Under the pieces are notes generated by a model that saw nothing but the letters and a program-made list of their open reading frames with translations, was not told the origin of the DNA and did not search any database. From Thermomicrobium sp. (GTDB lineage Bacteria > Chloroflexota > Chloroflexia > Thermomicrobiales > Thermomicrobiaceae): 64,000 bases of DNA. Below are positions 60,670 through 64,000 of the stretch, in pieces; position 1 is the stretch's first letter; each line of letters begins with the position of its first letter. The stretch is from contig JAVQRO010000007.1 of the NCBI GenBank assembly GCA_033582455.1, forward strand, positions 12,628 to 76,627. The letters run 5' to 3'. The position numbers were made by a program, and so were the translations under genes.

Positions 60670-61893
60670 ATGCGCATCGATCTCCAGCGCTTGCTGGCAC
60701 GTCTCGACCGTCTGGCACGGATCGGCGGTACGCCGAGCGGAGGAGTCACGCGCCTCGCCCTCACGGACGAAGACCGAGCAGCTCGCGACCTCCTCCGAAC
60801 GTGGATGGAAGAGGCCGGCCTCGTGGTCCGCATCGACGATTTCGGCAACATGGTTGGACGGCGTGAGGGAACCGACCCGGAGGCACTCCCGGTTCAGCTC
60901 GGGTCACACTGCGACTCCGTACCGTCAGGCGGCGCGTTCGACGGCACGCTCGGTGTGCTGGGCGCACTGGAGGTGGTCCAGACCGTGCACGACGCTGGCA
61001 TCCTGACCCGGCGGCCGTTGGAAGTGATCAACTGGACGAACGAGGAAGGCGCGCGGTTCCAACCCCCGATGCTCGGCAGCGGTGCCGTCTCGGGCCGCTT
61101 CGACAAATCATATGTCTACGCCCGCACCGACGCAGAGGGCCGCTCCTTCGCAGCGGAACTCGAACGGATCGGCTACCTGGGCAGGGAAGGGAATCGGCCA
61201 GGACCAGGAGTGGCCTATCTCGAACTCCACATCGAACAGGGGCCGGTGCTCGAAGCGGAGGGCGTACCCGTCGGCGTCGTCGAGGGAATCGTCGGAATCA
61301 CCTGGTGCGAGGTGGCAGTCCTGGGGAAAGCCAGCCACGCTGGGACGACTCCCTTGCCCATGCGGCACGACGCCCTGTTGGCCGCCTCCCAGCTCGTCGA
61401 GCGCGTGCAGCGCCTCGCCCGCGAGGCCGGTCCACCGGCACTCGGAACAGTCGGCCGTTTGCAGGTCGAGCCCAACGCCGTCAACGTCGTTCCGGGGCGT
61501 GTCACCTTCAGCGTCGACTTCCGCCATCCCACGAGCGCGGGACTGGACTGGCTCGTCGCCCAGTTCGAGGCAGCGGCGATACAGGTCGCGGCCGAGACCG
61601 GGACCGTGGTGCACGTCGATCGGTACTGGACCAGCGAGCCGACCCCGTTCGACCCGCAGGTCGTCTCGACCGTCGAACGGGTCGTGCAGCGCCTCGGGCT
61701 GCCGTATCGGCGCCTCTGGTCAGGCGCTGGACACGACGCCAAGTATCGGCAAGACATCTGCCCTACCGGCATGGTCTTCGTGCGGAGCCGAGACGGGCTC
61801 AGTCATTGCCCGCAGGAGTACAGCGCCCCGGAGGACATCGAAGCAGGGGTGACCGTCCTGCTCCACACCACGCTCGAACTCGCGAACCGCTAG
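60670..61893 (+). CDS. M20 family Zn-dependent amidohydrolase (N-carbamoyl-L-amino acid/allantoate amidohydrolase-like)
   Basis: GVTRLAL, GSHCDSVP.GG.FDG.LGV, NEEGARF, ELHIEQGP, HAGTTP, SGAGHDA. Confidence 0.93.
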   Translation: MRIDLQRLLARLDRLARIGGTPSGGVTRLALTDEDRAARDLLRTWMEEAGLVVRIDDFGNMVGRREGTDPEALPVQLGSHCDSVPSGGAFDGTLGVLGALEVVQTVHDAGILTRRPLEVINWTNEEGARFQPPMLGSGAVSGRFDKSYVYARTDAEGRSFAAELERIGYLGREGNRPGPGVAYLELHIEQGPVLEAEGVPVGVVEGIVGITWCEVAVLGKASHAGTTPLPMRHDALLAASQLVERVQRLAREAGPPALGTVGRLQVEPNAVNVVPGRVTFSVDFRHPTSAGLDWLVAQFEAAAIQVAAETGTVVHVDRYWTSEPTPFDPQVVSTVERVVQRLGLPYRRLWSGAGHDAKYRQDICPTGMVFVRSRDGLSHCPQEYSAPEDIEAGVTVLLHTTLELANR

Positions 61894-62416: not shown

Positions 62417-63615
62417 TCAGCGGGTGACCGTGAGCCCGAGGAGTTCGCCCATCTCGCGCAGGTGTGCGCGCGCTCGCTCCACTTCGCGCCCCTCGTCAGC
62501 TGCCCGAACGAGCCGCTGGGCCGCTTCGGCCAGCAGATCGATCGCTCGGGGGGTATCGAGATCGTTCGCGAGCGCGGCGACCAACGCGTCCCGCACAGGG
62601 CCGAGTTCGAGCGGCGTCGATCGGCCGCCGACGACGTTCACCGCCTCGCGTAGCTGCCGGACGAGCGGTTCGTAGCGGGATGGCCCGTCGTCTCGGTATT
62701 CGTAGGGAGTCCGGTAATGATGACTGAGGAGATAGAGCCGGATGGCGTCGCCGGTGTGACGACGGAGCGTGTCGCGCACGAGGACGAGGTTGCCCAGGAG
62801 TTGGACATCTTCGCCCCCTAGTACTCCACCATCGCCACGTGGACCCAGAAACGCGCGAAGGGACGGATGCCGGTATAGCTCTCCGATTGGGCGATTTCGC
62901 TTTCGTGGTGCGGGTAGATCAGATCCAAGCCACCCCCGTGGACGTCGATCTGCGGACCGAGGTACTTCATGGCCATCGCACTGCACTCGATGTGCCATCC
63001 TGGCCGCCCCGGTCCCCACGGACTCTCCCAGGTCGGCTCACCCGGTCGAGCCGCCTGCCACAGAACGAAGTCGAGCGGGTCTTCCTTCCGCGGATCGTAC
63101 GGATCGGCGCCCCGCTCGGCCGAGAGACGGATCATTTCCTCGCGCGGACAGCGACAGAGGTGCCCGTAGTCGGGATCGGCCGCGACGCGGAAATAGACGT
63201 TCCCGTCGCGCACGTAGGCAGCGCCCCGCTCCAGCAGTCGCTGGATGATCTCGATCATGAGCGGGATCTCTTCCGTCGCCCGCGGGAAGACGGAAGGAAA
63301 CAGCACATTGAGCGCATTCAGGTCTTCCTGGAACTGGCGGATATAGCGATCCCCCAGACGATCCCACGGTTCACCCACTTGGCGGGCCTTGCGCAGGATG
63401 TCGTCGTCGATGTCGGTGATGTTCTGCACGTACTTGACACGCCATCCGTGGTACTGGCAGACCCGGTTGAAGACATCGAAGACGAGGTAAGTCATCGCAT
63501 GACCCATGTGGGTCGTGTCGTAGGGGGTGACGCCGCAGACGTAGAGCCGAACGGTTCGCCCGTCGGCTGGGGCAAAGGTCTCGACTCGTCCGGACAGTGC
63601 ATTGAACAGGTGCAC
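62417..63615 (-). pseudogene. MshC-like / truncated-CysRS-like cysteine ligase, disrupted by TAG (62820-62818) and a 1-nt frameshift in the KMSKS loop
   Basis: YVCGVTPYDTTHMGH, QNITDIDD, WESPWGPGRPGWHIECSAM, HHESEIAQ, then Y*GAKMSN; LGNLVLV...RLYLLSHHYR...NDLDTP continues in another frame. Span is 1199 nt (3n-1). About 399 aa, with no anticodon-binding domain. Confidence 0.8.
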
Positions 63616-63714
63616 GGTCGCAGTCGCTCCCTCCAGCACTCGCGCTGCTCGCTTGCGGTATCGTACCATCGGTCTAGGCGTTGGACTCGTCGTCGATCGA
63701 AGGAAGGAGTGACG

Positions 63715-64000
63715 ATGGCTGGACAAGTCGGTGAACGGGCTCCGGACTTCCGTCTGCCGAGTACGCTCGGCCAACCACTCGCGCTGAGCGAGATTCTCAG
63801 CGAGCGGATCGCGGTACTGGCCTTCTTCCACTTCGCCTTCACTGGTGGTTGAGGGAACGAGCTGTCCCAGTTGTGGGGCAGAATCGACGAGATCCGCAGT
63901 CTCGGCGCGGAAGTCTACGCGATCAGTTGCGACAGTCACTTCGCCCAGGGCGCCTGGGCACGGGAACTCGGTGTCGACTTCCCCTTCCTCAGCGACTGGA
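63715..64000 (+). CDS. Selenocysteine-containing peroxiredoxin (AhpC/TSA, AhpE/BCP-like); 3' truncated by window edge
   Basis: ATG at 63715 after AAGGAAGGAG. Reads VGERAPDFRLPSTLGQ...FFHFAFTGG-TGA(63850-63852)-GNELSQL...EVYAISCDSHFAQGAWARELGVDFPFLSDW, with uninterrupted Prx homology across the UGA at the peroxidatic Cys position. Confidence 0.88.
63862..63881 (+). promoter_or_regulatory. Bacterial SECIS-like hairpin
   Basis: CUGUCCCA / GUUG / UGGGGCAG: 8-bp stem (one G-U) with a G-initiated apical loop 17 nt after the UGA. Confidence 0.7.

What the first reader, a model, noticed from the sequence alone, without database searches (positions are those of the whole stretch)
62417..64000. Selenoprotein peroxiredoxin paired head-to-head with an MshC-like cysteine ligase: hint of a Chloroflexi low-molecular-weight thiol / seleno-peroxidase system
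Seen: divergent genes with 99 nt between their start codons (63615 and 63715). One has MshC-type signatures (CGVTPYDxxHxGH, KMS..GNLVLV) and lacks the CysRS anticodon domain. The other is an AhpE/BCP-like Prx with Sec. Known: MshC ligates Cys to GlcN-Ins in mycothiol synthesis, and mycobacterial AhpE is recycled by mycothiol/mycoredoxin; mycothiol is considered actinobacterial. Inference: this lineage may make a mycothiol-like or novel Cys-sugar thiol that recycles a selenium-dependent peroxidase, with both genes controlled from one shared promoter region.
Basis: partly seen in the sequence, partly recalled or inferred. Interest (0 to 1): 0.78.

Follow-up and report, generated by a model that had tools for sequence, protein, structure and literature searches.

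The report
MshC-type cysteine ligase beside selenocysteine peroxiredoxin
A Thermomicrobium-like bacterium carries a tRNA-synthetase-derived cysteine ligase of the mycothiol (MshC) type head-to-head with a selenium-containing peroxide-destroying enzyme, which hints that this non-actinobacterial lineage makes a mycothiol-like protective thiol, although the ligase copy in this assembly is broken.

Summary
A ~399-aa CysRS-like gene without the anticodon domain (minus strand, 62417-63615) sits 99 nt head-to-head with a peroxiredoxin (63715 onward) that has UGA at the peroxidatic position. In this assembly the ligase is broken inside KMSKS by an in-frame TAG and a 1-nt deletion. A 99.94%-identical public contig carries the intact gene.

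The ligase is not the housekeeping CysRS, because a full-length copy lies elsewhere in the genome. In a maximum-likelihood tree all canonical CysRS separate (100/99) from a clan holding this family and actinobacterial MshC. All 61 genomes of the order keep the paralog. 57 of 61 also have an MshA-like glycosyltransferase and inositol-phosphate synthase. MshD and mycothione reductase are absent, and MshB candidates are ambiguous.

The peroxiredoxin is a real selenoprotein: the TGA is conserved in 33 genomes, a SECIS-like hairpin follows it, and SelA, SelB and tRNA-Sec are present. It has no resolving Cys and is closer to archaeal BCP than to AhpE.

The pairing is kept in seven genera of one family and is absent elsewhere.

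Verdict: partly supported. This is an MshC-type ligase outside Actinobacteria. The thiol product and its link to the peroxidase remain inferences.

The parts
62417..63615 (-). MshC-type, anticodon-domain-less CysRS paralogue (about 399 aa), disrupted in this assembly
   Evidence: NCBIfam scores: MshC 396.5 bits (cut-off 485) and cysS 383 bits covering positions 2-399 of 466. Pfam tRNA-synt_1e scores 366 bits. The intact allele P0002 is 99% identical. The AF2 model has pLDDT 92 and matches MshC with TM 0.89-0.91.
62818..62820 (-). In-frame TAG stop (CAG/Gln in the intact allele), two codons before KMSKS
   Evidence: It is unique to G000 among the 61 related genomes, apart from G036, which is broken differently.
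62795..62809 (-). KMSKS motif reading KMSNS (AAG>AAC) followed by a 1-nt deletion that shifts the frame before LGNLVLV
   Evidence: Alignment to L020 shows differences at window positions 62800 and 62797.
63627..63634 (-). Shine-Dalgarno GGAGGGAG of the ligase, 11 nt before GTG 63615
   Evidence: Read from the sequence. It is invariant in genus g1 while the spacer varies.
63659..63668 (-). Conserved extended -10-like element (TGGTACGATA here; TGGTAGCATA in other genera)
   Evidence: Present 45-60 nt upstream of the ligase start in all 15 intergenic regions inspected. Its role as a promoter is an inference. The strict sigma-70 scan found nothing.
63616..63714 (.). 99-nt divergent intergenic region
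63715..64000 (+). 1-Sec peroxiredoxin, first 95 of 158 codons (the gene runs to 64191, beyond the window)
   Evidence: Pfam AhpC-TSA scores 101 bits. The full ORF was read from the genome. Orthologues occur in 33 of 61 genomes.
63850..63852 (+). UGA selenocysteine codon at the peroxidatic position (U46)
   Evidence: Every one of the 33 orthologues has exactly one in-frame TGA at this position, down to 38% identity.
63862..63881 (+). SECIS-like hairpin (8 bp, GUUG loop) starting 12 nt (9 intervening nt) after UGA
   Evidence: MFE fold. 82% of cells are paired against at most 54% for slid registers, and 3 pairs show compensatory changes.

Best explanation
The minus-strand gene belongs to the MshC-type clan of CysRS-derived, tRNA-independent cysteine ligases.

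Shown. The intact allele keeps the Zn/cysteine site (C35, C219, H244/H245, E246), HIGH (HMGH) and KMSKS. It lacks the anticodon-binding domain and coexists with a canonical CysRS.

Inferred. It activates Cys as Cys-AMP and transfers it to the amine of an amino-sugar, most probably GlcN-inositol. That acceptor would be made by the order-wide MshA-like GT4, the actinobacterial-type Ino1 and one of three LmbE deacetylases. The product would be a mycothiol-type thiol, possibly without the actinobacterial N-acetylation and Mtr recycling.

Shown. The plus-strand gene is a 1-Sec BCP-type peroxiredoxin with no resolving Cys. It decodes UGA through a SECIS-like hairpin, SelA, SelB and tRNA-Sec.

Inferred, and weaker. 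In the Thermomicrobium family the Prx gene was placed head-to-head with the ligase and kept there because its selenenic acid or selenenyl-sulfide is reduced by that thiol, perhaps through a redoxin.

The TAG and the 1-nt deletion in KMSKS of this assembly are one very recent lesion or a consensus error. They are not a feature of the system.
For: - Trees. Canonical CysRS (29 rows from bacteria and archaea, including the genome's own copy) forms one side of a 100/99 branch. This family and actinobacterial MshC lie on the other side (the same topology appears with 242 rows).
- There is a shared MshC-type insertion, AERG(A/G)DP, absent from 93-97% of CysRS.
- 50 catalytic columns are universally conserved.
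- The genome's own canonical CysRS scores 518 bits and covers positions 2-464.
- The paralogue is present in 61 of 61 genomes of the order.
- MshA-like genes score 340-400 bits in 57 of 61 genomes. Only C. glutamicum among 14 control genomes reaches this level.
- Ino1 is present in 57 of 61 genomes, and the genome's own copy scores 537 bits on TIGR03450.
- All 41 Chloroflexota genomes with two MshC-model hits also carry MshA-like, against a base rate of 199 of 301.
- Sec evidence. The TGA is conserved in 33 genomes. The hairpin shows covariation. SelA scores 539 bits, SelB scores 353 bits, and tRNA-Sec is present.
- The pair is adjacent in 7 genera, while the M20 gene and most other flanking genes differ.
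Against: - The MshC model score (396.5) is below NCBI's cut-off (485), and the family is not nested inside actinobacterial MshC. The clan is a polytomy.
- No MshD was found (best hit 30 bits). No Mtr was found (best hit in relatives about 286 bits against a cut-off of 636, with nothing in the genome itself). The LmbE proteins score higher on BshB1 than on MshB.
- MshA-like is much more widespread in the phylum than two-copy CysRS genomes, including small Dehalococcoidia, so it may have another role.
- msh-like genes are not clustered with the ligase.
- The ligase is kept in lineages that lack the Prx, and distant Sec-Prx genes in family f2 are not adjacent to it.
- BCP-type Prx are usually thioredoxin-dependent.
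- Residual synteny exists: the NDH-2-like gene in g1 and g8, and cluster 1 in g1, g2 and g8. Adjacency could therefore be partly inherited.
- The window's copy is broken.
Confidence: 0.5

Rival explanations
1. The adjacency has no functional meaning. The ligase does make (or once made) a Cys-sugar thiol, but the Sec-Prx is an ordinary thioredoxin-dependent BCP that happened to insert next to it in an ancestor of the family and stayed there through inherited synteny.
For: - The closest solved relatives are archaeal BCPs at 81 and 65 bits, with AhpE at only 47 bits.
- The ligase is universal in the order, while the Prx is present in only 33 of 61 genomes and is unlinked in family f2.
- Other genes near the pair are also partly conserved between g1, g2 and g8.
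- Outside this genus, intergenic spacers are 150-250 nt long with separate -10-like boxes.
Against: - Direct adjacency and divergent orientation are invariant wherever the f1-type Prx exists (7 genera, with Prx identity down to 42-46%), while the immediate outer flanks change.
- The Prx has no resolving Cys, so it needs an external thiol for both reduction steps.
Confidence: 0.4
2. The paralogue is an auxiliary cysteinyl-tRNA synthetase (for example a stress-time CysRS) that still charges tRNA-Cys despite lacking the anticodon-binding domain.
For: - It scores above the cysS cut-off (383 against 340).
- The best PDB sequence hit is E. coli CysRS at 331 bits, against 313 bits for MshC.
- The fold matches both about equally well.
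- No column is shared with MshC against CysRS except the small insertion.
- NCBI names relatives 'cysteine--tRNA ligase'.
Against: - The anticodon domain, a major identity reader for tRNA-Cys (established knowledge on E. coli CysRS), is missing in every member.
- Every genome of the order also has a full-length CysRS.
- It is separated from all canonical CysRS by a 100/99 branch and lies in the same clan as biochemically proven MshC.
Confidence: 0.12
3. The ligase attaches cysteine to a different acceptor that is not a redox buffer, such as another amino-sugar, a lipid or cell-envelope glycoconjugate, or a secondary metabolite.
For: - MshD and Mtr are absent.
- MshA-like and Ino1 are widespread in Chloroflexota irrespective of the paralogue and may serve inositol glycoconjugates.
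- The clan is a polytomy of deep lineages from several phyla.
Against: - The only characterised members of the clan make mycothiol.
- All two-copy genomes have MshA-like.
- It is linked to a peroxidase gene in 7 genera.
Confidence: 0.2
4. In this particular strain the ligase is a true, very recent pseudogene. The pathway is being lost, so the pair is non-functional here.
For: A TAG plus a frameshift lie in the catalytic KMSKS loop. One other relative (G036) also has a broken copy.
Against: - Four changes within 26 bp of an otherwise identical 7.7-kb stretch look like a single artefact or event.
- There is no other decay in the gene.
- A near-identical public contig is intact.
- No internal gene-conversion donor was found.
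- Reads could not be inspected.
Confidence: 0.3

Closest known systems
[quoted passage not shown]
   Same: - It has a class I CysRS catalytic core with the Zn/Cys site, HIGH and KMSKS.
- It has the same truncated architecture of about 400 aa without the anticodon domain.
- It shares the AERGxDP insertion.
- It lies in the same clan in the tree.
- The AF2 model superposes on MshC with TM 0.89-0.91 and rmsd 1.9-2.2 A.
- It coexists with a canonical CysRS, an MshA-like GT4 and an actinobacterial-type Ino1.
   Different: - Identity is only about 40%.
- It scores below the TIGR03447 cut-off.
- It is a separate deep lineage in Chloroflexota.
- No MshD or Mtr partner was found.
- The KMSKSLGN and PHHESEIAQSE motifs read as in CysRS.
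- The acceptor substrate is unknown.
Canonical bacterial CysRS (E. coli 1LI5/1U0B)
   Same: It shares the catalytic domain, Zn ligands, HIGH/KMSKS, SC-fold and DALR_2 helical bundle. Identity is 40-47%.
   Different: - It lacks the C-terminal anticodon-binding domain.
- It is not the only copy in the genome.
- It lies on the other side of a 100/99 split.
Bacterial Sec-containing peroxiredoxins (Prx selenoprotein family with a T/SxxU active site; Zhang et al. 2006, PMC1794560; PrxU)
   Same: It has the AhpC-TSA fold, UGA at the peroxidatic position in FTGGU, a downstream SECIS-like hairpin, and the Sec machinery in the genome.
   Different: - It is not a PrxU equivalog (43.5 bits against a cut-off of 270).
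- It has a small BCP-like 1-Sec form with no other Cys.
- It occurs in an aerobic thermophilic Chloroflexota lineage.
- It is mis-annotated in public records as a 105-111-aa 'redoxin domain-containing protein'.
M. tuberculosis AhpE (1-Cys Prx reduced by mycothiol/mycoredoxin-1)
   Same: It is a small one-cysteine-type Prx without a resolving residue, in a genome with MshC-type genes.
   Different: - Sequence similarity is only 47 bits.
- Archaeal BCPs (A. pernix 2CX3) are closer.
- It uses Sec instead of Cys.
- The reductant is unknown.

Membership tests
MshC (NCBIfam TIGR03447, EC 6.3.1.13) | Class I CysRS-type catalytic domain with Zn/Cys ligands, HIGH and KMSKS | tested here: met
   The intact allele P0002 has C35, C219, H244/H245, E246, HMGH and KMSKS, and 50 universally conserved columns. 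In the window's copy KMSKS is broken.
MshC (NCBIfam TIGR03447, EC 6.3.1.13) | About 410 aa with no C-terminal anticodon-binding domain | tested here: met
   Length is 399 aa. The cysS model is covered over positions 2-399 of 466. The AF2 model ends after the helical bundle.
MshC (NCBIfam TIGR03447, EC 6.3.1.13) | Score above the curated equivalog cut-off (485.1 bits) | tested here: not met
   396.5 bits. Relatives in the phylum reach at most 410 bits.
MshC (NCBIfam TIGR03447, EC 6.3.1.13) | Phylogenetic grouping with characterised MshC to the exclusion of CysRS | tested here: met
   CysRS is monophyletic at 100/99. The family lies on the MshC side, but in a polytomy and not inside the actinobacterial clade.
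MshC (NCBIfam TIGR03447, EC 6.3.1.13) | Genomic co-occurrence with MshA, MshB, MshD (and Ino1) | tested here: inconclusive
   MshA-like scores 361 bits (cut-off 462) and Ino1 scores 537 bits (cut-off 638), both order-wide. MshB has only LmbE-type candidates at 50-56 bits. MshD is absent. Mtr is absent.
MshC (NCBIfam TIGR03447, EC 6.3.1.13) | ATP-dependent ligation of Cys to GlcN-Ins | not testable with these tools
   This needs an enzyme assay.
Canonical CysRS (TIGR00435) | Score above the cut-off (340 bits) | tested here: met
   383.1 bits for the read-through sequence.
Canonical CysRS (TIGR00435) | C-terminal anticodon-binding domain | tested here: not met
   Model positions 400-466 are unmatched. 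The genome's copy on contig C3 covers positions 2-464.
Canonical CysRS (TIGR00435) | Groups with tRNA-charging CysRS in a tree | tested here: not met
   It is separated by a 100/99 branch.
Sec-containing peroxiredoxin (T/SxxU selenoprotein family) | AhpC-TSA/redoxin fold with in-frame UGA at the peroxidatic position | tested here: met
   PF00578 scores 101 bits. The motif is FTGG-U. All 33 orthologues have one TGA.
Sec-containing peroxiredoxin (T/SxxU selenoprotein family) | Bacterial SECIS hairpin just downstream of UGA | tested here: met
   The hairpin lies at 63862-63881, with 82% of cells paired and 3 compensatory pairs. Because it is coding sequence, covariation is constrained.
Sec-containing peroxiredoxin (T/SxxU selenoprotein family) | Sec-decoding machinery in the genome | tested here: met
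   tRNA-Sec at C3:200983-201076. SelA scores 538.6 bits. SelB scores 353 bits. SelD was not searched.
AhpE subfamily (mycothiol/mycoredoxin-dependent 1-Cys Prx) | Closest similarity to AhpE | tested here: not met
   AhpE scores 47 bits against 81 bits for A. pernix BCP.
AhpE subfamily (mycothiol/mycoredoxin-dependent 1-Cys Prx) | No resolving cysteine | tested here: met
   C72 is not conserved, and g8 orthologues have no Cys at all.
AhpE subfamily (mycothiol/mycoredoxin-dependent 1-Cys Prx) | Reduced by LMW thiol plus mycoredoxin | not testable with these tools
PrxU (NF040737) | Score above the cut-off (270 bits) | tested here: not met
   43.5 bits.

The most novel reading that the evidence does not exclude
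Thermomicrobia, and probably many other Chloroflexota, synthesise a mycothiol-type Cys-GlcN-inositol thiol using deep-branching MshA/MshC/Ino1 homologues, without the actinobacterial MshD and Mtr. In the Thermomicrobium family this thiol is the dedicated reductant of a one-selenocysteine peroxiredoxin encoded head-to-head with the ligase. That would be the first mycothiol-type buffer outside Actinobacteria and the first selenium peroxidase coupled to a sugar thiol.
Probability: 0.2. Interest if true: 0.8.

Novelty: new member of a known kind. Interest (0 to 1): 0.45.

Why it matters
Mycothiol is treated as a hallmark of Actinobacteria, and I found no paper in the searchable library describing the major low-molecular-weight thiol of Chloroflexota. 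A conserved MshC-type ligase, MshA-like transferase and actinobacterial-type Ino1 across a whole order with cultured members (Thermomicrobium roseum, Thermorudis, Sphaerobacter) makes that question directly testable with a bimane/LC-MS experiment.

The Sec-peroxiredoxin is systematically mis-annotated as a truncated 'redoxin domain protein' in public records. Its strict head-to-head position next to the ligase gives a concrete candidate reductant to test for a 1-Sec Prx.

If the product turns out to be ordinary mycothiol and the Prx is Trx-dependent, the result is a modest taxonomic range extension plus an annotation fix.

Tried and rejected
These were used only as outgroups.
- The phylum-wide search with the MshC model did not separate paralogues from high-scoring canonical CysRS. 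Only 'two-hit' genomes could be used for a one-directional association with MshA-like.
- Signature-column analysis found no residue that discriminates the acceptor, only the shared AERGxDP insertion. No GlcN-Ins-bound structure exists in the papers read.
- The fold search does not discriminate MshC from CysRS.
- Neighbourhoods of the ligase in families f2-f5 and in other phyla show no msh-like clustering. The only exception is an LmbE gene about 3 kb away in f5.
- I initially hoped the flavoprotein next to the Prx was a thiol-disulfide reductase. It is NDH-2-like, with its best sub-threshold hit to 'Nterm_to_SelD'.
- A search for a gene-conversion donor for the lesion was negative.
- The strict sigma-70 and terminator scan found nothing.
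- Literature searches for mycothiol in Chloroflexi or Thermomicrobia found no relevant statement.
- One NCBIfam call was wasted on a 70-aa SelA fragment.
Full report
**What is in the sequence**

The window is C7:12628-76627 of a 2.14-Mb, 64-contig, 65% GC genome estimated at 93% complete.

On the minus strand a CysRS-like gene runs from GTG 63615 to the TGA at 62417-62419. On the plus strand a peroxiredoxin starts at ATG 63715 and runs past the window end to 64191.

Three observations support that start:
- More distant homologues begin MQLYN or MRLYN at this position.
- GGAGGGAG lies 11 nt upstream and is invariant in the genus, while the spacer between it and the GTG varies.
- The apparent conserved 'N-terminal extension' MVRYRK, which gene callers include, coincides with a motif (TGGTACGATA here, TGGTAGCATA elsewhere) found 45-60 nt upstream of the ligase in every genus inspected. 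I read this motif as an extended -10 element. That is an inference, and the strict sigma-70 scan found nothing.

**The ligase is broken in this assembly**

Read in one frame, the gene gives ..FWVHVAMVEY*GAKMSNSWATSSS. The homologous continuation LGNLVLVRD.. lies in another frame.

A Logan contig from SRR15826899 (L020) is 99.94% identical over 7,713 bp and encodes an intact 407-aa product..VEYQGAKMSKSLGNLVLV... Only five differences separate the two sequences, and four of them lie within 26 bp (window 62797, 62800, 62820, 62821).

Among 61 genomes of the order, all orthologues except this one and one other (G036) are open. No donor sequence for gene conversion exists in the genome.

The cluster is therefore a single recent event or a consensus artefact. 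For searches I read the protein through with X at the stop, or used the intact allele P0002.

**What the ligase is**

Family and structure comparisons do not separate MshC from CysRS:

| Comparison | MshC | CysRS |
|---|---|---|
| NCBIfam model | 396.5 bits (cut-off 485.1) | 383.1 bits (cut-off 340), covering positions 2-399 of 466 |
| Best PDB sequence hit | 313 bits (M. smegmatis) | 331 bits (E. coli) |
| AF2 model superposition (pLDDT 92) | TM 0.89-0.91, rmsd 1.9-2.2 A | TM 0.85-0.90, rmsd 2.6-3.0 A |

The whole C-terminal anticodon-binding domain is missing.

The genome has a separate full-length CysRS (C3:13953-15329, 518 bits, positions 2-464) and tRNA-Cys.

The phylogeny is the discriminating test. 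In a FastTree of 242 sequences and an IQ-TREE LG+C20 tree of 72 sequences, all canonical CysRS, bacterial and archaeal and including the genome's own copy, form one side of a branch with 100/99 support (length 0.40). The window's family (100/100) lies on the other side. With it are the actinobacterial MshC clade (99/96; mycobacteria, Streptomyces, Acidimicrobiia) and other ~400-aa proteins from Chloroflexota, Acidobacteriota and a CPR bacterium. Inside this clan the branching is unresolved, so the family is a sister lineage and is not nested within actinobacterial MshC.

A column-by-column comparison found 50 universally conserved catalytic positions. The only character shared with MshC against CysRS is a small insertion, AERG(A/G)DP.

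Strict equivalog membership in MshC is not met either.

**Pathway context**

Results across 61 genomes of the order (5 families, 24 genera):

| Gene | Result |
|---|---|
| Ligase paralogue plus a canonical CysRS | 61 of 61 have the paralogue |
| MshA-like GT4 | 57 of 61 at 340-400 bits. Only C. glutamicum among 14 controls reaches this. The genome's copy scores 353 bits on MshA and 111 bits on BshA |
| Inositol-phosphate synthase (Ino1) | 57 of 61. The genome's copy scores 537 bits on the actinobacterial 'mycothiol_INO1' model (cut-off 638) |
| LmbE-family deacetylases | Three copies, scoring higher on BshB1 (103-120 bits) than on MshB (50-56 bits) |
| MshD | Nothing better than 30 bits |
| Mycothione reductase | No candidate (at most 286 bits against a cut-off of 636, with none in the genome itself) |

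At phylum level MshA-like genes are widespread (199 of 301 genomes, including small Dehalococcoidia). All 41 genomes that clearly carry two CysRS-like genes have MshA-like. The association is therefore one-directional.

The msh-like genes are not clustered with the ligase anywhere I looked, except for an LmbE gene about 3 kb away in one family.

I estimate a Cys-amino-sugar (most likely GlcN-Ins) ligase function at about 0.5-0.6. An auxiliary tRNA-charging CysRS is at about 0.12. The remainder goes to another acceptor.

**The peroxiredoxin**

The 158-codon ORF matches AhpC-TSA (101 bits) and has TGA where the peroxidatic Cys belongs, in FAFTGG-U-GNEL.

Orthologues occur in 33 of 61 related genomes. 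Every one has exactly one in-frame TGA at that position, down to 38% identity.

An 8-bp hairpin starts 12 nt (9 intervening nt) after the UGA (63862-63881). Its cells are 82% paired against at most 54% in slid registers, and three pairs show compensatory changes.

SelA (538.6 bits), SelB (353 bits) and tRNA-Sec are present. SelD was not searched.

No other Cys is conserved, so this is a 1-Sec enzyme that needs external thiol for both reduction steps.

Its closest solved relatives are archaeal BCPs at 81 and 65 bits. AhpE scores 47 bits. It is not a PrxU equivalog.

Sec-Prx with a T/SxxU site is a known bacterial selenoprotein family (PMC1794560).

Public records annotate these genes as 105-111-aa 'redoxin domain-containing protein' from Thermomicrobium. 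This also identifies the genus, because G001's 2,046,163-bp contig matches 'Thermomicrobium sp. 4228-Ro'.

**Is the pair conserved?**

Within family f1 the Prx lies directly head-to-head with the ligase in genera g1, g2, g3, g5, g6, g8 and g9. Ligase identity falls to 66% and Prx identity to about 42% across these genera.

The outer neighbours change. The M20 amidohydrolase is found only here. The NDH-2-like flavoprotein is present in g1 and, one gene removed, in g8. An arginase-fold gene follows the Prx in g3 and g8. Some residual synteny remains.

The Prx is absent from g4, g7 and families f3-f5, which all keep the ligase. In f2 a distant Sec-Prx is located elsewhere.

The ligase is therefore an order-wide housekeeping-type gene. 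The Prx is an accessory gene that, where present in this family, always sits beside it. This is suggestive of coupling but not proof. I put a real functional link (thiol-dependent recycling and/or co-regulation) at about 0.3-0.4.

**Comparison with the literature**

Full-text searches found no report of mycothiol or its genes in Thermomicrobia or Chloroflexi beyond metagenome gene lists. The T. roseum genome paper mentions neither selenoproteins nor thiols. JGI pipelines already label relatives 'MshC', while NCBI labels them 'cysteine--tRNA ligase'.

**Verdict**

The ligase is a new, non-actinobacterial member of the MshC-type clan. The Prx is a new, mis-annotated member of the Sec-Prx family. 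Their association is a lineage-specific arrangement whose functional meaning is untested.

Earlier notes e1-5225138 (Sec-Prx) and e1-5225136 (KMSKS lesions) agree with what I found independently.

Noticed in passing
window 63659-63668 (minus strand), and the same position in L101-L128: The conserved motif TGGTA(G/C)(C/G)ATA lies 45-60 nt upstream of the ligase start in all genera. It looks like an extended -10 box. It explains why gene callers produce a 'conserved' MVRYRK N-terminal extension.
   Followed up: partly
C7:76798-78240 (window-equivalent 64171-65613, just beyond the window): A 480-aa NDH-2-like flavoprotein lies convergent with the Prx (3' ends overlap by about 20 nt). It is conserved near the pair in genera g1 and g8. 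Its best NCBIfam hit is the sub-threshold 'Nterm_to_SelD' family (137 bits against a cut-off of 310), a domain otherwise fused to selenophosphate synthetase.
   Followed up: partly
G000 C32:5874-8986: The MshA-like glycosyltransferase and SelA (538.6 bits) are divergent neighbours, separated only by tRNA-Arg(CCT) and tRNA-Pro(CGG).
   Followed up: no
L154, L157, L158, L160, L162, L163 (genera g3 and g8): An arginase/ureohydrolase-fold gene (292-331 aa) follows the Sec-Prx on the same strand, possibly forming an operon. It is absent in genus g1.
   Followed up: no
C7:79135-79602 and 79638-80294 (beyond the window): A DinB_2-family protein, a glyoxalase-like protein and an F420-type LLM oxidoreductase lie within 4 kb of the pair in genus g1. 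DinB-fold proteins include mycothiol- and bacillithiol-S-transferases.
   Followed up: no
window 60671-61893 (+): A hydantoinase/carbamoylase-family M20 amidohydrolase (NCBIfam allantoate amidohydrolase subfamily, 505 bits) lies convergent with the ligase. This neighbour is unique to this genome among relatives.
   Followed up: partly
public records of Thermomicrobium spp. (P0392-P0403): The Sec-Prx is annotated everywhere as a 105-111-aa C-terminal fragment ('redoxin domain-containing protein'), because the UGA is read as a stop.
   Followed up: yes
Chloroflexota genomes G061-G356: MshA-like GT4 genes scoring 340-420 bits on the mycothiol MshA model occur in two thirds of sampled Chloroflexota, including 1.4-1.9-Mb Dehalococcoidia. 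Their role there is unexplained.
   Followed up: no
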